From positions 1 through 11,056 of the IMG/VR virus record IMGVR_UViG_2663763028_000004: a stretch of 11,056 nucleotides of DNA. The stretch is one strand, 5' to 3'. The notes beneath the pieces are model-generated. The model saw only the letters and a program-made list of their open reading frames with translations. It searched no databases and was not told the DNA's origin. Positions 983 through 9,307 of the stretch are shown one piece after another; position 1 is the first letter of the stretch, and every line of letters starts with the position of its first letter. Origin of the DNA: a virus (taxonomy: Duplodnaviria > Heunggongvirae > Uroviricota > Caudoviricetes). Made by a program: the position numbers and the translations under genes.

Positions 983-2359
983 TCATACGTCAGCCCCTTG
1001 TGCATATCGTCTGCCACGCGCAGCAGGTGCATTTGATGCTGTGCAAATCTGTCTGGCTTCATCCTGGTCACACGCAACAAAGTGTCCGTTGCAGAACCGC
1101 TGGTAAACCGTACCAAGCGAGCCAAAACGGTTTTTCGTCACGATGATTTCAGCAAATGGCGCGGCGCTACTGTTCTCGTCATATACCGCTTCCCGATAGA
1201 GCATGATGATTGAGTCTGCGTCCTGCTCAATGCTTCCTGAATCACGCAAATCTGCGTTTGTCGGGCGTTTATTTGGTCGCTTCTCAACATCGCGCGAAAG
1301 CTGACTCAGGGAGATAACAGACGTTTTCAGGTCTTTCGCCATCGCCTTCAGGCTTCCGGAGATGTGAGCAATTGCAAGGTCGTTGCGGTCTGCTTTCGGC
1401 TTCTCAATCAGGCCAAGATAATCCGCCATGATGAGTGACAGGTTTGGATTTTCCTGTTTGTGCCGTTCTGCGATTGAGCGTATTTCTTCGACCGATAACC
1501 GCGATGCATCGACTACCCATACATCCAAATCTGCAAGCTGACTCATGCCGTTAGCAACACGCGCCCAGCCTTCGTCATCCATCGATGCAGGATTTCGCAG
1601 CACGCTAACCGACATCCTCCCGGCGTTGGCAATGCTCCGCTCTGCAATCTGCAATGCGCTCATTTCCATTGAGAAAATCAATACTCCGCGCCGGACGTCA
1701 GAACCAGGAATAACGCGGCTTGCAACACCTTCGGCAATCTTCAGCGCCAGTTCGGTTTTCCCCATACCAGGACGAGCGGCGATAATCACCAGGTCTTCCG
1801 CGTTCATCCCTCCGGTGATAGCGTCAAGTTCTTCGATTCCGGTCTTCAGGGTATCGGACTCTTCTCCGTTCCTCAGACGCCTGTCAAGCGTGTCAGTGTA
1901 GTCAGTGATGATTTCACCTAACCGTACAGGTTTAACCTCGTCACGGGGCTTTCTGATGGCTGAGAGACGCTTTACAAGCTCATCCATCGCCTGACTCGAT
2001 GCGTCGATGGTTCCGCTCTGAATTGGTTCACGCATTTCGTCCATGATTTCCAGCACCAGACGGCGGTGATAGTTATCCGCGACCATTCCGGCATATCCCT
2101 TCAGGTTTGCGGCACTCGGGCAGTTTTTGCTGGTCATCAGGATTGACGTGAAATGCTCCTCTCCGCACGCCTCGGCAACCATCAGCGCATCGATTAGGTT
2201 TCTGTTTCTCGCCTGCTTGCGGATAACCTCGAAGGCTTTCCGGTAGAGTGGAATTGAAAACGCTTCCGGATCCAGCGTTGCCAGAACGTCGCTGGCGGTT
2301 GGTGTTAATCCACCAATCAGCAGGCCACCGATAACGCTCGCTTCGATATCCTGTCTCAT
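983..2359 (-). CDS. Replicative DNA helicase, DnaB family (phage P22 gene 12-type), replacing lambda P
   Basis: 458-aa track ORF; Walker A ARPGMGKT, Walker B-like LIMADYLGL, DnaB-like N-terminal domain. AGGGGGA RBS upstream; start overlaps the stop of the upstream O-like gene (ATGA). Confidence 0.9.
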
Positions 2360-3186
2360 GCAATCCCCCTGTCTGCAAACTTCCCTTCCCGTACTCCCGT
2401 TAACGAATCTTCCCTCAGCAGGTAATCAAAATCGGCCGTCCAGCCCGTGTCGTTGTCTCCGAAGTAAAACGGCTTGGCCTGATGCACAAACGCCCTGACA
2501 TACGCTCTGAAACCGTCCACGTTTGGCGTTTTCAGTTGCGGGATGATTTTCTTCAGGCGGCGTTTGCGTTTCTCGTTGACCGCAACAGCATGTGGAAGTC
2601 TGTCACCGACTTCGGTGTTGTAGGCGTTCAGGAAGGATTCGTAGTCGATTCGTTCTGCCTTGCGACGTTCAGGTTTAACCTGCCCATCGCCGCCCCCGTT
2701 AGGGGGTAAGGGGGTATTTGTATTTATTGTCTTTTGTATATTGTCTTTTGTGTTTGACTGATTCGGTAAATTGCTTTTTACCGATTTGGTGAAGGTTTGT
2801 TTTACCGAATTGGTAAATGTTTTACCGAATCCGTTAACTTTCGTTTTCCACTCGGAAATGTTTGTATTCATACCAACTTGACGCCCCACCTGAATGAGAA
2901 CTCCCATTCTGATAAGCTCGTTTTTGGCGGTAGAGCATTTGGTTGGTGCCATGCCAGTGAGTTCAGCGAACTGTTCGTTTCCGATCCAATCTATTTTTTT
3001 GTTGTAACCGTATGTCTTGCGCCACACAGCCATAACAATCAGTAACTGATGTAGAGTAAGTCCAGAAAGCATGGCGGCTTCTAACAGTGTGTTTGCAGTC
3101 CGAGTGTAGCCATCTTCGAGTTCTGCCACGCGATGCTCCACGACCTCCAGTTGAGGCCTGTAATCAGCTAACTTAACGACGCCCAT
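2356..3186 (-). CDS. O: Replication initiator, lambda O family (replisome organiser)
   Basis: 276-aa track ORF; N-terminal domain ([32 protein letters not shown]) resembles lambda O as I recall it. Low-complexity central linker ([15 protein letters not shown]) is encoded by the iteron array. Confidence 0.85.
2715..2838. repeat. Probable replication origin inside the O-like gene: iterons plus AT-rich tract
   Basis: Three direct copies of GTTTTACCGA(A/T)T starting near 2774, 2799 and 2819, one inverted copy (ATTCGGTAAA, 2761-2770), and an adjacent T-rich tract with tandem ATTGTCTTTTGT (2726-2750). Relative to O transcription the order is iterons then AT-rich tract, as in ori-lambda. Confidence 0.7.
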
Positions 3187-3344: not shown

Positions 3345-3421
3345 GTGGATTGATCCAGTAATTCCCTCAGAATTGCATATCAATTTGCTTAAAATCCTCG
3401 GTGGCGGCCGGGGATTTTTTC
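3345..3421 (+). ncRNA. oop-like antisense RNA overlapping the 3' end of cII (coordinates estimated)
   Basis: Extended -10 promoter TG-T-CATAAT (3329-3337) on the plus strand; plus-strand terminator hairpin CCTCGG/CCGGGG (3396-3413) followed by TTTTTT, inside and antisense to the cII 3' end. Same arrangement as pO/oop in lambda. Confidence 0.4.
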
Positions 3422-3663
3422 TTTGTGATTTCATCAAGCGCATACTTAAAAGCCCTGCTAATCGGACTGATGTCTGATGCCATTCCGAAAGCACACAAGA
3501 CCGAAGCAATAAATCTCCAGTCCGTTCTGCTTATCTTCGATTCATGACAGCCAATCATCTTTGCCAGACCGCGCTGTGTAAGCGTTGACAGGTTGATGAG
3601 TAAATCTGTTTCTGCGCGATCAACGTCGCGCTGTGATAGTTTGCTGTAACTTGTTTGTTCCAT
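3367..3663 (-). CDS. cII: CII-family transcriptional activator
   Basis: 98-aa track ORF in the canonical position downstream of cro and nutR; helix-turn-helix-like segment (GLAKMIGCHESKISR). Its start codon abuts a TTGC-N6-TTGT element, as in lambda. Confidence 0.8.
   Translation of the reverse strand: MEQTSYSKLSQRDVDRAETDLLINLSTLTQRGLAKMIGCHESKISRTDWRFIASVLCAFGMASDISPISRAFKYALDEITKKKSPAATEDFKQIDMQF
3394..3421 (+). terminator. Intrinsic terminator of the antisense RNA (tO-like), with bidirectional character
   Basis: 6-bp stem with one G-U pair, 6-nt loop, then a T6 run (3415-3420); A-run on the 5' side. Confidence 0.55.
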
Positions 3664-3673: not shown

Positions 3674-3697
3674 TTCCATGGGTAAATAATCACTAAT

Positions 3698-3715
3698 ACT
3701 CATCTTTCGATGAGT
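3698..3715 (-). terminator. tR1-position hairpin (7-bp stem, GAAA loop); terminator function uncertain
   Basis: ACTCATC-GAAA-GATGAGT on the minus strand between nutR and the cII RBS; no strong U-tract follows, so Rho-dependent or merely structural. Confidence 0.3.
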
Positions 3716-3727
3716 GCTTAATTAGTT

Positions 3728-3762
3728 ACCGCGTTGTCGGCGGTGCAGATTGATAAAGAGCG
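3728..3762 (-). promoter_or_regulatory. nutR (boxA + boxB)
   Basis: Minus-strand boxA CGCTCTTTA (complement of 3754-3762) directly after the cro stop; boxB hairpin ACCGC-CGACAAC-GCGGT (complement of 3728-3744) with a GACAA-containing loop, as in P22-type boxB. Confidence 0.65.
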
Positions 3763-3769
3763 GTGTTAC

Positions 3770-3997
3770 TTATGCAGCCAGAAGGTTCTTTTTGCTTATT
3801 TCAAGCATTTCGCTTGCTTGATATTTGCCACCAGAAATCTCTTCGATTTTTGATGCGTATTTAGTTTTCCCAAAAAACTCAGTCTTAGGGAGGAAGCCGT
3901 TTTTGAGCCACTTATAGACAGCCCTTTCGCTAACTCCACAAGCCTTCGCAACTTCAGGGATGCCGACACCTTTAATCGGCTCATCAAGATTTTGCAT
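3770..3997 (-). CDS. cro: Cro-like repressor (HTH)
   Basis: 75-aa track ORF transcribed divergently from cI across the operator region; HTH-like segment GIPEVAKACGVSERAVYKWL; AAGGA RBS 7 nt upstream. Confidence 0.8.
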   Translation of the reverse strand: MQNLDEPIKGVGIPEVAKACGVSERAVYKWLKNGFLPKTEFFGKTKYASKIEEISGGKYQASEMLEISKKNLLAA

Positions 3998-4075
3998 AGG
4001 AATATCCTTTTTCGTACTTTCAGTACGTATTATGGTTGAACTGAAAGTTTTTGCAAGTGCTTTAGTATCGTACTC
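3998..4075. promoter_or_regulatory. OR operator region with divergent pR and pRM
   Basis: pR candidate on the minus strand: -35 TTGCAA (4051-4056), -10 CATAAT (complement of 4029-4034). pRM candidate -10 TAGTAT (4063-4068) ends 8 nt before the cI ATG. Dyad elements: CGTAC-N5-GTACG (4013-4027); 9-mer ACTTTCAGT (4016-4024) with inverted copy ACTGAAAGT (4040-4048) flanking the pR -10; CGTAC again at 4069-4073. Confidence 0.65.
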
Positions 4076-4783
4076 ATGGTTCAGAATGAAAAAGTGCGCA
4101 AAGAATTCGCCCAGCGGCTAGCGCAAGCCTGTAAAGAAGCTGGTCTTGATGAACATGGTAGGGGGATGGCCATAGCCCGTGCCCTTTCTCTTTCGTCCAA
4201 AGGCGTTAGCAAATGGTTTAATGCTGAGTCTTTACCGCGTCAGGAAAAAATGAATGCGCTTGCGAAATTTCTAAACGTTGATGTTGTTTGGCTTCAGCAC
4301 GGCACTTCGTTAAATGGAGCGAATGATGAAGATACTCTTTCATTTGTTGGCAAATTAAAAAAAGGGTTAGTGCGCGTGGTTGGTGAGGCAATTCTTGGTG
4401 TTGATGGTGCCATCGAGATGACCGAAGAGCGCGATGGGTGGCTCAAAATTTATAGCGATGATCCAGATGCCTTTGGTCTTCGTGTGAAAGGAGACAGCAT
4501 GTGGCCTAGAATAAAATCAGGAGAATATGTACTCATTGAGCCTAACACCAAAGTATTCCCGGGTGATGAGGTGTTTGTCAGAACTGTTGAAGGACACAAC
4601 ATGATCAAAGTTCTTGGCTATGACAGAGACGGAGAATACCAATTTACAAGCATCAACCAGGACCACAGGCCAATAACGTTGCCTTATCATCAAGTAGCAA
4701 AGGTGGAGTATGTGGCTGGTATTCTGAAGCAATCTCGCCATCTGGATGACATCGAGGCAAGGGAGTGGCTGAAAAGTTCGTGA
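4076..4783 (+). CDS. cI: CI repressor (N-terminal HTH, C-terminal LexA-like S24 autopeptidase domain)
   Basis: 235-aa track ORF; C-terminal GDSMWP motif and a Lys about 40 residues later (S24 Ser-Lys dyad pattern); no Shine-Dalgarno before the ATG. Confidence 0.9.
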   Translation: MVQNEKVRKEFAQRLAQACKEAGLDEHGRGMAIARALSLSSKGVSKWFNAESLPRQEKMNALAKFLNVDVVWLQHGTSLNGANDEDTLSFVGKLKKGLVRVVGEAILGVDGAIEMTEERDGWLKIYSDDPDAFGLRVKGDSMWPRIKSGEYVLIEPNTKVFPGDEVFVRTVEGHNMIKVLGYDRDGEYQFTSINQDHRPITLPYHQVAKVEYVAGILKQSRHLDDIEAREWLKSS

Positions 4784-4843
4784 CTTCATCGTCACATAGC
4801 TGGTAACCAGTGGCCTGAAGAGACGTTTGGGTAAAGAGGATAG

Positions 4844-5097
4844 ATGGAGTTTAATGGCCATGAGTATCAAGCGGTCAAAAAGAAGTTCATCTATTCATTG
4901 AAAGCATAAGGCCATCTGAGTATATCCGTAATGATCTGGATATTGTCTATAACATCAATGACCGGACGATAGATATCGGTGAGCAGCGTCCTGTATGGCA
5001 GGGTGAGGCAGGTGAAAAAACGTCCTGCCATCAACAAGAATCAAGTGCATCCGCTCTCTGGACAGATGGAAAATTTATTGGATGCAAAAAGATATGA
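4844..5097 (+). pseudogene. Frameshift-split reading frame (about 84 codons if joined) downstream of cI
   Basis: ATG at 4844 with AAGAGGA RBS opens a 21-codon ORF (MEFNGHEYQAVKKKFIYSLKA). The -1 frame is open for 78 codons (4864-5097) with no ATG/GTG/TTG in frame. The two overlap at an A5 run (4877-4881) in the context C-AAA-AAG. Confidence 0.3.
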
Positions 5098-5207
5098 AAT
5101 AACACCTGTATAGCACGGAGCTTTCTCTGACCGATGCACTTGAAGTTGTTAGGGCTGACCCAGCCTGCTGTTTCTTTAGGTAAGAGAAAAGAGATTTAGG
5201 AGATGAA

Positions 5208-5235
5208 AGGTCGCAGAGGTGCGGCCTTTTTTATT
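5208..5235 (+). terminator. Intrinsic terminator downstream of the cI transcription unit
   Basis: 8-bp stem AGGTCGCA/TGCGGCCT (one G-U pair) with GAGG loop, followed by T-rich tract (5228-5235). Confidence 0.6.
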
Positions 5236-5335
5236 GAGAGTGGATCTTGAACGGAAATTCTCAAGACTTGAGTCTTACATGCAAATCAATTCCTGGATAA
5301 ACTCGATCTGAGTCAATAACTTAGAGAGAGAGCAA

Positions 5336-5857
5336 ATGGCAAAGTCAAACGTTAGCGTGCAGGCATTCAAGGACTTCCTTGAAGAGCTTATGTCGCTGAA
5401 CATAATGAAGGAGGCCACCGCTCGAAATTTAAAAAACTCATCCGCTCGCCTCTTAACGGTAGTCCAAGAAGAGGAAATGGGTGATGTTACTCAGCTTGAT
5501 GTGAATGAGCTTGCCGAGCGATACATCAACGCAACTGAGCCGAAGCCTAGCGACAGCAGCATTACTGCATATAAAAGCCGCATGGAAAGTGCAATCAAAA
5601 AGTTTGTAGCTTTCCAGTCTGGTGAAGAAATCCCATACACTCCGATTGACAAAGAATCCAGTGAGGAAAAAGATTTGACTGGCGAACCAACAAAAGTCGA
5701 AGGCAAGGCTAATGCACTTCATACCTATGATCTTCCAGTAGTTCTTCGACCTGAATCAGGGGTTACAGTAACGATTAAAGGCATTCCTAACGATATCACA
5801 AACGAAGAAGCCGAACGCATCTCTTCAATTCTGAAGGTTTACGTTCGGCCTCAATAA
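5336..5857 (+). CDS. Hypothetical acidic protein (173 aa), moron in the cI-pL interval; family not recognised
   Basis: Track ORF with purine-rich RBS (AGAGAGAGAGCAA-ATG). Same strand as cI, but separated from it by a terminator and followed by one. No hydrophobic segment and no motif I can assign. Confidence 0.7.
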   Translation: MAKSNVSVQAFKDFLEELMSLNIMKEATARNLKNSSARLLTVVQEEEMGDVTQLDVNELAERYINATEPKPSDSSITAYKSRMESAIKKFVAFQSGEEIPYTPIDKESSEEKDLTGEPTKVEGKANALHTYDLPVVLRPESGVTVTIKGIPNDITNEEAERISSILKVYVRPQ

Positions 5858-6030
5858 TGCAAAAGCATTCAGCACAATGTCCAACTCCCCAGTCCGACAT
5901 TGATGCTGTTTAACCAGAGCCTCCAAAAGGAGCCCTTGTTAAGGTACACAATATTTGCGATGTAACCTTAGCGCGTCTGGTACATTTTTTCAAGCGGTTG
6001 TAGGGCTGCCGCCAATATGAGAAAACACAG

Positions 6031-6153
6031 ATGTCTACATACAATTTGAATGACCAATTCGATCGAGAAGTTCATGTGAATGCCTATGAACGGATAAGGT
6101 ATGGAAATCTTGAACATGTGTGTGAGCATTATCGCTCAAGGCCACACCGCTAA
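6031..6153 (+). CDS. Hypothetical 40-aa ORF ending 8 nt before a terminator
   Basis: My translation: MSTYNLNDQFDREVHVNAYERIRYGNLEHVCEHYRSRPHR. Weak Shine-Dalgarno (GAGAAAA); supported mainly by position. Confidence 0.25.
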   Translation: MSTYNLNDQFDREVHVNAYERIRYGNLEHVCEHYRSRPHR

Positions 6154-6160
6154 TCATCAA

Positions 6161-6186
6161 CCCGGCCTCAGCGCCGGGTTTTCTTT
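6161..6186 (+). terminator. Intrinsic terminator closing the moron unit upstream of pL
   Basis: Perfect 6-bp stem CCCGGC/GCCGGG with 6-nt loop, followed by TTTTCTTT. Confidence 0.6.
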
Positions 6187-6352
6187 GCCTCACGATCGCC
6201 CCCCATATTTAATAGCCGAAAATGTGGTAAACCGCGAACCAACTCACCAGCAATACCCCCTTCAACTACAGACCAATCTGCAGCATTTACAAAAATAAAT
6301 TTCCTTATATATCAAAATCATATCTCGAAGCATTAATAAACCACAAAATTTT

Positions 6353-6400
6353 CGTACCAATAGTTCTTGATAATATCGAACTATTGGTTCATTATTGTCA
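6353..6400 (+). promoter_or_regulatory. pL/OL candidate region
   Basis: Perfect 11-bp-arm inverted repeat ACCAATAGTTC-N11-GAACTATTGGT (6356-6388); candidate -35 TTGATA (6367-6372) and -10 CATTAT (6390-6395) with 17-bp spacing; CGTAC motif (6353-6357) shared with OR; sits about 40 nt upstream of nutL. Confidence 0.4.
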
Positions 6401-6441
6401 CGTCAGCAGGAAGCTGGAAGCCAAACGGAACAGATTGGCAG

Positions 6442-6475
6442 GCTCTTTAACTTCGATGGGGCGCTGACAAAGCGC
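6442..6475 (+). promoter_or_regulatory. nutL (boxA + boxB)
   Basis: boxA-like GCTCTTTAA (6442-6450) and boxB GCGCTGACAAAGCGC (6461-6475), which matches the P22 boxB sequence as I recall it; lies in the N leader. Confidence 0.7.
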
Positions 6476-6594
6476 AAACAGATACCAAACGAGATGGGTT
6501 TGTCGGTGATGTGAATTGCAGCTGCAACGACAGCAACCAGAAGATCAGCACCTGGCGCATCACCACCAAAGCCATTTCACATGAGGAAAACATC

Positions 6595-6930
6595 ATGACG
6601 GTAATCGTGTACGGGAAATCAACATTTGCAGGAAATGCCAAAACTCGCCGTCATGAGCGGCGCAGAAAGATGGCTATCGAGCGTGATGCCATCTGCAACA
6701 TCATTGATTCTATCTTCGGCACAGACAGTGAGGAACCTGTTCAGGAGGCCCCAAGAAAGCGTTTAAGCCTTTCTGAAAAAGCAATATCACTCGGAAGCCT
6801 TCGCTGCAAGAAGGCAGAAGAAGTCGAGCGTAAACAGAACCGTATTTACTACCGCAAGCCACGCAGTGAAATGGGTGTGACTTGTGTTGGTCGCCAGAAA
6901 ATGAAATTAGGCAGCAAACCACTTATTTGA
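6595..6930 (+). CDS. N: Antitermination protein N (P22 gene 24-like)
   Basis: Start chosen at the internal Met of track ORF 6511..6930 (GAGGAAAA RBS). N-terminus MTVIVYGKSTFAGNAKTRRHERRRKMAIERD contains the arginine-rich boxB-binding motif and is near-identical to the P22 N N-terminus as I recall it. Confidence 0.88.
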   Translation: MTVIVYGKSTFAGNAKTRRHERRRKMAIERDAICNIIDSIFGTDSEEPVQEAPRKRLSLSEKAISLGSLRCKKAEEVERKQNRIYYRKPRSEMGVTCVGRQKMKLGSKPLI

Positions 6931-7576: not shown

Positions 7577-7602
7577 CGTTATGTATAAATAAGGAGCACA
7601 CC

Positions 7603-7743
7603 ATGCAATATGCCATTGCAGGGTGGCCTGTTGCTGGCTGCCCTTCCGAATCTTTACTTGAACGAATCACCCGTAAATTACGTGACGGATGGAAGCGACT
7701 CATCGACGTACTTAATCAGCCAGGAGTTCCCAAAAATGGATAA
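7603..7743 (+). CDS. cIII: CIII (FtsH inhibitor stabilising CII)
   Basis: 46 aa from the internal Met of track ORF 7522..7743, AAGGAG RBS at 7591-7596. MQYAIAGWPVAGCPSESLLERITRKLRDGWKRLIDVLNQPGVPKNG is near-identical to lambda CIII residues 1-46 as I recall them. Confidence 0.85.
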   Translation: MQYAIAGWPVAGCPSESLLERITRKLRDGWKRLIDVLNQPGVPKNG

Positions 7744-8042: not shown

Positions 8043-8723
8043 ATGGGAACTGCGATATTAATACTCGGTGAGTCTGGCACCGGAAAATCAACCAGCATGA
8101 GAAATATCAATCCAGAGGAAGCAATACTTATAAAACCAATAGGCAAGCCGCTACCATTTAAATCAAAAGACTGGCTTGCATGGGATGCCAGAGCAAAAAA
8201 AGGAACCGTAGTTACCACTGACAAATGGGGTGTAATAGTTGCCGTAATTAAGCGTGCTCACGAATACGGGAAAAGAATCGTTATTGTTGATGACTTCCAG
8301 TATGTGATGAGCAATGAGTTTATGCGCCGCTCAGAAGAAAAATCGTTTGATAAATTTACTGAGATAGGCCGCCACGCATGGGAGGTCATTAAGGCTGCAC
8401 AGGATGCGCCTGATGACCTGAGAGTCTATTTTCTTGCGCACACCGAAGAAACCCCTATGGGGCGCGTGAAAATGAAGACTATCGGCAAAATGCTGGACGA
8501 GAAAATCACTGTCGAAGGCATGTTTACTATAGTTCTTCGCACTCTTACCCGCGATGACCAGTTCTTTTTCACCACGAAAAACAACGGTGCAGACACTGTT
8601 AAATCCCCAATGGGAATGTTTGATTCCAATGAGATTGATAACGATCTCTCTTTCGTCGATGCCACTGTTTGTGATTACTACGGCATCAATAATGTTCATC
8701 AAATTAAGGAAAACGCCGCATGA
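8043..8723 (+). CDS. P-loop ATPase, Sak4-like (RecA-fold recombination ATPase) candidate
   Basis: 226-aa track ORF; N-terminal Walker A GESGTGKST, Walker B-like RIVIVDD; located where lambdoid phages carry their recombination module; GAGG RBS. Confidence 0.6.
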   Translation: MGTAILILGESGTGKSTSMRNINPEEAILIKPIGKPLPFKSKDWLAWDARAKKGTVVTTDKWGVIVAVIKRAHEYGKRIVIVDDFQYVMSNEFMRRSEEKSFDKFTEIGRHAWEVIKAAQDAPDDLRVYFLAHTEETPMGRVKMKTIGKMLDEKITVEGMFTIVLRTLTRDDQFFFTTKNNGADTVKSPMGMFDSNEIDNDLSFVDATVCDYYGINNVHQIKENAA

Positions 8724-9307
8724 GCAACGTAATTTTTACTTATAACGAAGAAGCAGCACTGACCGCAGGGCAAGGTGGTTTTATTAACGAAACTGGCGCT
8801 TACATAATTACCATTACTGAAGCAGAACTCAAGCAATCAGAAAAAGGAGCCAAATTTATTGAGTTTTCTGGAGAATCCGACGACGGACGTAAAATCCAGT
8901 ATCTTAGCGTCTGTGTTCAGAAAAATGACGGCACGGAAAACAAATTTGGCGCAAATGTCGTTCACGCCATGATGGGGTGTGCCGGGATTGGACAATTAAC
9001 GCAACATATGGTTTCCGCCAGTAAATTTGTTGCACCTGAATTTCATGGAAAGAAAATCGGGTTAGTGCTCCAGAAAGTATTAACCACAAACAAAAAGACT
9101 GGCGCAGACAGCTACCAGATGGAAATACGCATCCCGTTTATTGCACAAACAGGTCAAACCCTTAAAGAAAAGGCAGAAGGCAAGCAACCAGAAACTATCG
9201 CCAACATGGTTGCCAGCCTCAAAGATAAAGACAATCGCTCTAAAAACGTAAGCCATAATCATGCAGATGATTATGGTTACAGCCAGAACGATTACCCTCC
9301 TTTCTGA
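8720..9307 (+). CDS. Hypothetical protein (195 aa) with SSB-like acidic/aromatic C-terminal tail; putative ssDNA-binding partner of the ATPase
   Basis: ATGA overlap with the upstream ATPase gene; C-terminus DDYGYSQNDYPPF resembles the SSB C-terminal DDDIPF tip; the body does not look like a canonical OB-fold SSB to me. Confidence 0.55.
   Translation: MSNVIFTYNEEAALTAGQGGFINETGAYIITITEAELKQSEKGAKFIEFSGESDDGRKIQYLSVCVQKNDGTENKFGANVVHAMMGCAGIGQLTQHMVSASKFVAPEFHGKKIGLVLQKVLTTNKKTGADSYQMEIRIPFIAQTGQTLKEKAEGKQPETIANMVASLKDKDNRSKNVSHNHADDYGYSQNDYPPF

What the first reader, a model, noticed from the sequence alone, without database searches (positions are those of the whole stretch)
6353..6400. 11-bp perfect inverted repeat enclosing promoter-like hexamers at the presumed pL/OL
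Seen: ACCAATAGTTC-(TTGATAATATC)-GAACTATTGGT at 6356-6388, whose spacer contains TTGATA and GATAAT/TAATAT; the shared CGTAC motif lies just upstream. Inference: an operator that occludes pL when bound. Arms this long and exact are unusual for CI operators and could instead be the site of a different regulator or a recombination or insertion scar.
Basis: partly seen in the sequence, partly recalled or inferred. Interest (0 to 1): 0.4.

Follow-up and report, generated by a model that had tools for sequence, protein, structure and literature searches.

The report
Two 933W repressor operators at pL
The 11-bp inverted repeat is real, but it is not one unusually long operator: each arm is the core of one of the two adjacent 15-bp CI repressor binding sites (OL1 and OL2) of the already characterised Shiga-toxin phage 933W immunity system, placed over the leftward early promoter, so the finding is ordinary.

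Summary
The repeat is confirmed: ACCAATAGTTC (6356-6366), an 11-nt spacer, then GAACTATTGGT (6378-6388). It is the only perfect 11-nt inverted repeat with a short spacer in the window.

The window is a mosaic lambdoid early region. Its CI and Cro proteins are 100% identical to those of phage 933W, and its three OR operators match the GenBank-annotated 933W oR1-3 base for base.

933W repressor sites are 15 bp (7+1+7). A matrix built only from the three OR sites finds exactly two further top-scoring sites in 11 kb:
- 6353-6367, CGTACCA-A-TAGTTCT
- 6377-6391, CGAACTA-T-TGGTTCA

These lie 24 bp centre to centre, and each contains one arm of the repeat. They bracket a -35 TTGATA and overlap a -10 CATTAT that faces nutL and an N gene. 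933W itself carries the identical arms. The literature reports exactly two repressor sites in 933W OL, with measured affinities.

In 76 related loci the repeat decays to 8-10/11 in 24. The contact positions, -35 and -10 stay almost fixed. The repeat lies inside the immunity module, not at a mosaic junction.

The parts
6353..6367 (.). Promoter-distal CI operator, here called OL2 by the lambda convention: CGTACCA-A-TAGTTCT. Half-sites are CGTACCA and AGAACTA. It contains the left arm of the repeat.
   Evidence: A matrix built from the three OR sites only scores it 11.6 bits, rank 5 in the window; the next non-operator site scores 9.9. It is identical in 933W. The 15-bp 7+1+7 site architecture is from PMC3317979.
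6377..6391 (.). Promoter-proximal CI operator, here called OL1: CGAACTA-T-TGGTTCA. Half-sites are CGAACTA and TGAACCA. It contains the right arm of the repeat, lies between -35 and -10, and overlaps the -10 by 2 nt.
   Evidence: The OR-only matrix scores it 12.4 bits, rank 3 in the window. It is identical in 933W. It lies 24 bp centre to centre from OL2, the same spacing as OR1-OR2.
6356..6388 (.). The reported inverted repeat: arms 6356-6366 and 6378-6388 with an 11-nt spacer. It equals operator positions 4 to 2' of OL2 and 2 to 4' of OL1.
6367..6372 (+). Predicted pL -35 hexamer TTGATA. Its first base is the last base of OL2; the rest lies in the gap between the two operators.
   Evidence: Promoter scan: TTGATA, 17-nt spacer, CATTAT, 9 of 12 matches. 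The hexamer is changed in only 4 of 76 related loci.
6390..6395 (+). Predicted pL -10 hexamer CATTAT. The predicted start is about 6400-6405.
   Evidence: The hexamer is unchanged in 73 of 76 related loci, while the bases just downstream (6396-6400) vary freely.
6284..6350 (.). Conserved A+T-rich block upstream of OL2, part of the 933W-type OL module. It holds no CI-type site.
   Evidence: It is conserved between the window, a 933W-immunity Stx2a phage and phage 1H12 and aligns to 933W from 6284. The best operator score in 6192-6352 is 2.7 bits.
6442..6475 (+). nutL: boxA-like GCTCTTTAAC (6442-6451) and boxB hairpin GCGCTGACAAAGCGC (6461-6475).
   Evidence: Read from the sequence. 6403-6450 aligns to the stretch that contains the annotated 'putative N-utilization leftward' feature of VT2-Sakai. 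The same boxB sequence lies in the annotated nutL of 933W.
6595..6930 (+). N antiterminator gene (111 aa), the first gene of the pL operon.
   Evidence: Pfam PF25694 N_peptide, E = 1.8e-26.
4076..4783 (+). cI repressor (235 aa, HTH_3 plus Peptidase_S24). This is the protein that binds the two sites.
   Evidence: 100% identical to 933W CI. Pfam domains.
3770..3997 (-). cro (75 aa).
   Evidence: 100% identical to 933W Cro. HTH families.
4013..4083 (.). OR with three operators: OR1 4013-4027 CGTACTTTCAGTACG, OR2 4037-4051 TGAACTGAAAGTTTT, OR3 4069-4083 CGTACTCATGGTTCA.
   Evidence: Exact matches to the operators oR1, oR2 and oR3 annotated in NC_000924.
6159..6180 (+). Intrinsic terminator ending the cI (pRM) operon, upstream of OL.
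   Evidence: Terminator scan. It is homologous to the stretch annotated in VT2-Sakai as the terminator for the pRM transcript.

Best explanation
The inverted repeat is the sequence signature of the left operator of a 933W-immunity lambdoid prophage. That operator consists of two adjacent 15-bp CI binding sites, OL2 at 6353-6367 and OL1 at 6377-6391, 24 bp centre to centre. The two sites are near-identical copies in opposite orientation.

One dimer of the CI repressor encoded 2.3 kb upstream (4076-4783) binds each site. OL1 fills the spacer between the -35 TTGATA and the -10 CATTAT of pL. OL2 abuts the -35 on the upstream side. Bound repressor therefore excludes RNA polymerase and keeps N and the leftward early operon silent in the lysogen. 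RecA-stimulated autocleavage of CI frees the promoter. Cro presumably uses the same sites after induction.

Shown here: the identity of the repressor, Cro and OR with 933W; the match of both sites to the operator model; their position at the promoter; and their conservation pattern. Taken from the literature: 933W OL has exactly two repressor sites, which are bound with nanomolar affinity and repress pL. Inferred: which site is called OL1, the exact -35/-10 assignment and start site, and Cro binding.
For: - CI and Cro are 100% identical to 933W. The window's OR1-3 equal the annotated 933W oR1-3.
- A half-site matrix trained only on OR ranks 6377-6391 and 6353-6367 among the five best 15-mers of the window. 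The other three are the OR sites; the next best site scores 9.9 bits. There is no third site in 6192-6352.
- 933W itself has the identical arms, with a single spacer difference.
- PMC3317979: the site is 15 bp and rotationally symmetric about a central base pair. There are five natural sites with measured KD, including OL1 and OL2. Positions 4 and 5 are invariant, and position 2 is G except in one OR2 half-site. All of this fits the ten half-sites read here.
- PMC5977221 says 933W has no OL3. PMC8065619 and PMC10742460 say two sites in OL and five in all. PMC3064807 says the Phi24B/933W CI shifts the left operator region and pL is repressed.
- In 76 related loci, changes within the operators fall at positions 6, 7, centre, 7' and 6'. 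The repeat drops to 8-10/11 in 24 loci. Positions 1-5 change in only 2 loci, and -35 and -10 are nearly fixed.
- With +1 near 6402, OL1 and OL2 centre at about -18 and -42. From my own knowledge, this is the geometry of lambda pL (OL1 about -17, OL2 about -41).
Against: - No binding or transcription experiment was or could be done on this window.
- The two primary papers that map the 933W OL sites and the pL start (Koudelka 2004; Tyler 2004) are not in the held library. The published coordinates of OL1 and OL2 were therefore not checked base for base.
- The 933W GenBank record annotates no OL operators.
- A matrix built from six half-sites is weak: 0.35 sites of at least 11.6 bits are expected per shuffled window. 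The case rests on two such sites 24 bp apart at the promoter, not on the scores alone.
- A second promoter reading is possible: an extended -10, TGaTAATAT at 6368-6376, with a start near 6383. That would put OL1 over +1, as OR1 is at pR. It is disfavoured because its hexamer varies in 5 of its 6 columns among related loci, and most loci, 933W included, carry TAATGT.
Confidence: 0.93

Rival explanations
1. The 33-bp element is one long operator for a different regulator, not CI. Its two subunits would recognise the 11-bp arms, two helical turns apart.
For: The arms are perfect and 22 bp centre to centre. The hairpin z-score is -5.45.
Against: Each arm is fully accounted for as the core of a CI-type 15-mer predicted from OR alone. 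In 24 of 76 related loci with 98-100% identical CI, the arms lose 1-3 matches while the CI contact positions stay fixed. No extra DNA-binding gene is linked to the module: the cargo between cI and OL differs between this window, 933W and 1H12. The literature assigns two CI sites to this operator.
Confidence: 0.03
2. The repeat is a recombination or insertion scar, or marks a mosaic junction between phage modules.
For: Homology to VT2-Sakai stops at 6191 and resumes at 6403, only 15 bp after the right arm.
Against: The breakpoints flank the whole immunity-specific OL module, 6192-6402 against Sakai and about 6284-6414 against 933W. The repeat lies inside it. The same arms are present in 933W, in Stx2a phages and in 52 of 76 related loci whatever their flanks. 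There are no target-site duplications or transposase remnants.
Confidence: 0.02
3. The repeat acts through nucleic-acid structure: a DNA cruciform, or an RNA hairpin such as a terminator or processing site in read-through transcripts from the cI operon.
For: The predicted DNA hairpin has -9 kcal/mol, better than all 200 shuffles.
Against: The stem is A+T-rich and has no following T run. The real terminator of the cI operon is upstream at 6159-6180. The element lies upstream of the predicted pL start, so it is not in the pL transcript. Arm changes in related loci are mostly uncompensated. No Rfam family matches here.
Confidence: 0.02

Closest known systems
Left operator/promoter (OL-pL) of Shiga-toxin phage 933W (and Phi24B), with sites OL1 and OL2
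   Same: CI and Cro proteins are identical. The OR1-3 sequences are identical. The 11-bp arms and both 15-bp sites are identical. There are only two sites and no OL3. The position is the same: upstream of nutL and N, downstream of the cI-operon terminator.
   Different: One base differs in the inter-operator gap (TTGATAATATC here, TTGATAATGTC in 933W). The flanking modules differ. The cargo between cI and OL is VT2-Sakai-like instead of the 933W stk cluster. nutL and N diverge from 933W beyond about 6414, and N is only about 89% identical in DNA to that of phage 1H12. The replication and recombination genes are DnaB-helicase/Abc2 types.
Lambda OL-pL (OL1, OL2, OL3)
   Same: The logic is the same: CI dimers on dyad-symmetric sites overlap -35 and -10. 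The proximal pair has the same 24-bp centre-to-centre spacing and about the same positions relative to the start (about -18 and -42). This comparison rests on my own knowledge of lambda.
   Different: Lambda sites are 17 bp, three in number, and bound cooperatively. 933W sites are 15 bp, two in number, and reported to be bound non-cooperatively (PMC3317979). The lambda OL1 and OL2 sites are not mirror copies of each other.
VT2-Sakai OL (three annotated 17-bp operators)
   Same: It occupies the homologous position between the same flanking sequences.
   Different: The operator sequences and the repressor are unrelated, that is, a different immunity. The 211-bp OL segment is simply swapped.

Membership tests
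933W-type CI operator (OL1/OL2 of the imm933W group) | A 15-bp site made of two 7-bp half-sites around a central base pair, with positions 2-5 = G-(A/T)-A-C. | tested here: met
   6353-6367 has half-sites CGTACCA and AGAACTA. 6377-6391 has CGAACTA and TGAACCA. All four carry G2, W3, A4 and C5. The definition is from PMC3317979.
933W-type CI operator (OL1/OL2 of the imm933W group) | The cognate repressor is encoded in the same immunity region. | tested here: met
   The window's CI (235 aa) and Cro (75 aa) are 100% identical to those of 933W.
933W-type CI operator (OL1/OL2 of the imm933W group) | The sites resemble the independently defined OR operators more than background sequence does. | tested here: met
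   With the OR-only matrix the two sites rank 3rd and 5th of 11,042 15-mers; the OR sites rank 1st, 2nd and 4th. As a caveat, 0.35 sites of that score are expected per shuffled window.
933W-type CI operator (OL1/OL2 of the imm933W group) | Sequence identity with the OL region of 933W itself. | tested here: met
   933W reads ...TTCGTACCAATAGTTCTTGATAATGTCGAACTATTGGTTCATTAT..., so both 15-mers are identical.
933W-type CI operator (OL1/OL2 of the imm933W group) | Exactly two sites in OL, with no OL3. | tested here: met
   The best score in 6192-6352 is 2.7 bits and in 6392-6600 is 3.7 bits. The literature agrees.
933W-type CI operator (OL1/OL2 of the imm933W group) | Purified repressor protects the sites and represses pL. 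| not testable with these tools
   This is reported for 933W and Phi24B in papers cited by PMC3317979, PMC5977221 and PMC3064807. The primary papers (PMC524892, PMC524894) are not held.
Sigma-70 early promoter pL | -35 and -10 hexamers with a 16-18 nt spacer, facing nutL and N. | tested here: inconclusive
   TTGATA, 17 nt, CATTAT gives 9 of 12 matches, but such matches are as common in shuffles: 8 found against 6.1 expected. Support comes from conservation of both hexamers against variable neighbouring bases. The start site is not mapped here.
Intrinsic terminator or structured RNA | A G+C-rich stem followed by a T run, or a match to an Rfam family. | tested here: not met
   No terminator call at 6356-6388. 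No Rfam hit there.

The most novel reading that the evidence does not exclude
The mirror arrangement might be functional rather than accidental. The weakly specified inner five positions (6, 7, centre, 7', 6') are 5/5 identical only for the two adjacent, 24-bp-spaced operator pairs taken in inverted orientation: OL2/OL1 and OR1/OR2. The other 18 operator comparisons give 3/5 or less. This could mean that each pair is read as one two-fold symmetric unit, for example by a CI or Cro dimer of dimers whose inner and outer subunits need equivalent half-sites. That would sit uneasily with the reported lack of pairwise cooperativity of 933W repressor. The more mundane reading is that each pair arose by inverted duplication and has since drifted. 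Natural variants with identical CI break the OL mirror in 24 of 76 loci.
Probability: 0.1. Interest if true: 0.35.

Novelty: already known. Interest (0 to 1): 0.08.

Why it matters
It matters little beyond correct annotation. The element is the CI-controlled switch point for leftward early transcription in a prophage with 933W immunity, the immunity type of a major Stx2 phage. Recognising the two 15-bp sites allows correct annotation of OL/pL, which is missing even from the 933W reference record. It also shows that this 933W immunity cassette (cro-OR-cI plus a separate roughly 130-200-bp OL module) moves between lambdoid backbones as two physically separated pieces. The one mildly interesting residue is the mirror-copy relation within each adjacent operator pair.

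Tried and rejected
- **Primary papers.** I tried to read the papers that map 933W OL and pL (PMC524894, PMC524892, PMC3133280, PMC93574). None is held.
- **Full-text sequence search.** Searching for the operator sequences themselves found only unrelated primer strings.
- **Compensatory change between arms.** I looked for it in 76 related loci as a test of a structural or single-site role. C-to-T at OL2 position 6 and the matching change in OL1 co-occur in 5 of 8 haplotypes, but each also occurs alone. Both move toward the operator consensus, so this is not evidence for pairing.
- **OR variation.** I tested whether OR varies in the same loci. It is almost invariant, so it cannot test the mirror idea.
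- **LexA-type box.** I inspected 6340-6400 by eye for CTGT-N8-ACAG and saw none.
- **Complete E. coli genomes.** None holds 80% or more of 5900-6700 in one piece, so the exact mosaic was not located there.
- **Extended -10 promoter.** TGaTAATAT was considered and judged less likely than TTGATA/CATTAT.

Full report
**Observation**

The window reads ...TTTTCGTACCAATAGTTCTTGATAATATCGAACTATTGGTTCATTATTGTC.... The repeat finder reports arms 6356-6366 and 6378-6388, 11 nt each, 100% complementary and 11 nt apart. It is the only perfect 11-nt inverted repeat with a spacer of 20 nt or less in the window. Such a repeat turns up somewhere in 50 of 1000 dinucleotide-preserving shuffles. Taken alone it is therefore only borderline unusual. 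As single-stranded DNA it would fold at -9 kcal/mol, z = -5.45.

**Context**

The window is a lambdoid early region drawn in the opposite sense to the usual lambda map:
- DnaB-type helicase, 983-2359 (-)
- O-type replication protein, 2356-3186 (-)
- cII, 3367-3663 (-)
- cro, 3770-3997 (-)
- an 78-bp intergenic OR
- cI, 4076-4783 (+; HTH_3 plus Peptidase_S24)
- two small cargo ORFs
- an intrinsic terminator at 6159-6180
- the repeat
- a nutL with boxA-like GCTCTTTAAC and boxB GCGCTGACAAAGCGC
- an N gene at 6595-6930 (PF25694)
- then kil/cIII and a P22-type Abc2

**Which immunity**

The cro-OR-cI segment is 98.8% identical to many Stx2a phages. The CI and Cro proteins are 100% identical to those of phage 933W. 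The three operators annotated in the 933W reference record are oR1 CGTACTTTCAGTACG, oR2 TGAACTGAAAGTTTT and oR3 CGTACTCATGGTTCA. They occur unchanged at 4013, 4037 and 4069.

The published description of 933W repressor sites is as follows (PMC3317979):
- The site is 15 bp and rotationally symmetric about a central base pair.
- There are five natural sites: OR1-3, OL1 and OL2.
- Position 3 is A or the preferred T.
- Positions 4 (A) and 5 (C) are invariant.

**What the repeat is**

Read with that architecture, the region contains two 15-mers:
- 6353-6367, CGTACCA-A-TAGTTCT, with half-sites CGTACCA and AGAACTA
- 6377-6391, CGAACTA-T-TGGTTCA, with half-sites CGAACTA and TGAACCA

A half-site matrix built only from the three OR sites, and so blind to OL, ranks these two among the five best 15-mers of the whole window. 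The scores are OR1 16.7, OR3 12.7, 6377-6391 12.4, OR2 12.3 and 6353-6367 11.6; the next site scores 9.9. Neither flank contains a third site (best 2.7 and 3.7 bits). The matrix is weak, with 0.35 such sites expected per shuffled window. What carries the case is two such sites exactly 24 bp apart, the same spacing as OR1-OR2, sitting on the promoter.

The left arm of the repeat is positions 4 to 2' of the distal site. The right arm is positions 2 to 4' of the proximal site. The two operators are 12/15 identical when one is inverted. The 'long exact arms' are thus the cores of two separate, oppositely oriented, near-identical operators, and not half-sites of one operator.

**Agreement with the literature and with 933W**

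933W itself carries ...TTCGTACCAATAGTTCTTGATAATGTCGAACTATTGGTTCATTAT.... Both 15-mers and both arms are identical, with one base different in the gap.
- 933W is reported to have only two sites in its left operator and five sites in all (PMC8065619; PMC10742460).
- It is reported to have no OL3 (PMC5977221).
- KD values for OL1 and OL2 are similar to each other and tighter than for the consensus site (PMC3317979). This fits the two sites being near copies.
- CI of Phi24B, whose immunity region is stated to be identical to that of 933W, shifts the left operator region, and pL repression is not compromised (PMC3064807).
- The primary mapping papers are not in the held library. The published coordinates could therefore not be compared base for base.
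- The 933W GenBank record annotates no OL sites.

**Promoter**

The scan finds TTGATA (6367-6372), a 17-nt spacer and CATTAT (6390-6395) on the + strand. Matches of this quality are no commoner than in shuffles, so the support comes from comparison.

I extracted the OL segment by flanking homology from IMG/VR and GenBank loci with 98-100% identical CI. Of the 77 extracted, 76 were informative. In these:
- The -35 changes in 4 loci.
- The -10 changes in 3 loci.
- The four bases between -35 and OL1, and the bases just after CATTAT, vary freely.

With a start near 6402, the operators centre at about -18 and -42. From my own knowledge, this is the geometry of lambda pL. An alternative extended -10 (TGaTAATAT, 6368-6376, start near 6383) would put OL1 over +1, as OR1 is at pR. 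Its hexamer varies in 5 of its 6 columns, and most loci, 933W included, read TAATGT, so I rank it second. Under either reading both bound dimers lie within the polymerase footprint.

**Conservation test of the rival readings**

The 76 loci split as follows for arm complementarity: 11/11 in 52, 10/11 in 6, 9/11 in 12 and 8/11 in 6.
- The substitutions sit at operator positions 6, 7, centre, 7' and 6'.
- Positions 1-5 of the four half-sites change in only two loci, at one position 2'.
- Arm changes are mostly uncompensated.
- Where C-to-T at position 6 occurs in both outer half-sites, both changes move toward the operator consensus.

This is the pattern expected for two repressor sites. It is not the pattern expected for a hairpin or for a single 33-bp site.

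**Mosaic question**

- Against VT2-Sakai, homology runs 4807-6191 (99.5%), breaks, and resumes at 6403-6450 and 6878 onward.
- Against 933W it runs 3751-5227 and 6284-6414.
- Against phage 1H12 it runs 6160-6822 at 89%.

The repeat therefore lies inside a 130-210-bp immunity-specific OL module, and the junctions flank that module. It is not itself a junction or scar. The window combines 933W immunity with Sakai-like cargo between cI and OL, a different N/nutL, and P22-like replication and recombination genes.

**Residual curiosity**

Among all 20 pairwise comparisons of the five operators (ten pairs, both orientations), the inner five positions are 5/5 identical only for inverted OL2/OL1 and inverted OR1/OR2. 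All other comparisons give 3/5 or less. The paper says the repressor specifies these positions poorly. Those two pairs are exactly the two adjacent pairs spaced 24 bp; the OR pair also appears as a 9-nt inverted repeat at 4016/4040.

A rough estimate from the observed column frequencies puts this below 1 in 1000. It rests on only five sites. It may simply record two inverted duplications. Natural variants with the same CI break the OL mirror, which argues against a strict functional need. I could not check whether the primary papers already remark on it.

**Verdict**

The element is the known OL1/OL2-pL of the 933W immunity group.

Noticed in passing
window 4013-4051 and 6353-6391: Each adjacent operator pair spaced 24 bp (OR1/OR2 and OL2/OL1) consists of mirror copies. 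The poorly specified inner five positions are 5/5 identical in inverted orientation for these two pairs only; the other 18 comparisons give 3/5 or less. OR1/OR2 also show up as a 9-nt perfect inverted repeat at 4016-4024 and 4040-4048.
   Followed up: partly
window 6284-6350: An A+T-rich block (TTTACAAAAATAAATTTCCTTATATATCAAAATCATATCTCG...) just upstream of OL2 is conserved in 933W, Stx2a phages and phage 1H12, yet holds no CI-type site. It could be an UP-like, bent-DNA or host-factor site for pL.
   Followed up: no
window 7590-7648 (+): A full-length match to the Rfam family Lambda_thermo (RF01804, the cIII thermoregulator): 88.5 bits, E = 5e-21.
   Followed up: no
window 3679-4806 and 6192-6402: The 933W immunity occurs here as two separate modules, cro-OR-cI and OL. 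Between them lies 1.4 kb of cargo that is 99.5% identical to VT2-Sakai (H0093/H0092 and the terminator), a phage of a different immunity. 933W carries stk and other genes at that place.
   Followed up: partly
window 6442-6475 and 6595-6930: nutL has boxB GCGCTGACAAAGCGC. The N protein begins MTVIVYGKSTFAGNAKTRRHERRRK, an arginine-rich motif that I recall as P22-type. The N gene is not the 933W or Sakai allele: homology to both is interrupted between about 6450 and 6877.
   Followed up: partly
window 9253-9276: A perfect 10-nt inverted repeat, CCATAATCAT-gcag-ATGATTATGG, lies inside the ORF 8720-9307, which has no Pfam match.
   Followed up: no
window 5900-6700: None of 5426 complete E. coli genomes holds 80% or more of this stretch in one piece, although 1693 hold parts of it. 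This particular mosaic is therefore not represented there.
   Followed up: no
NC_000924 (locus L006 3681-3915): The 933W reference record annotates oR1-3, pR, pM, nutL and tM, but no OL operators and no pL, although both are described in later literature.
   Followed up: no
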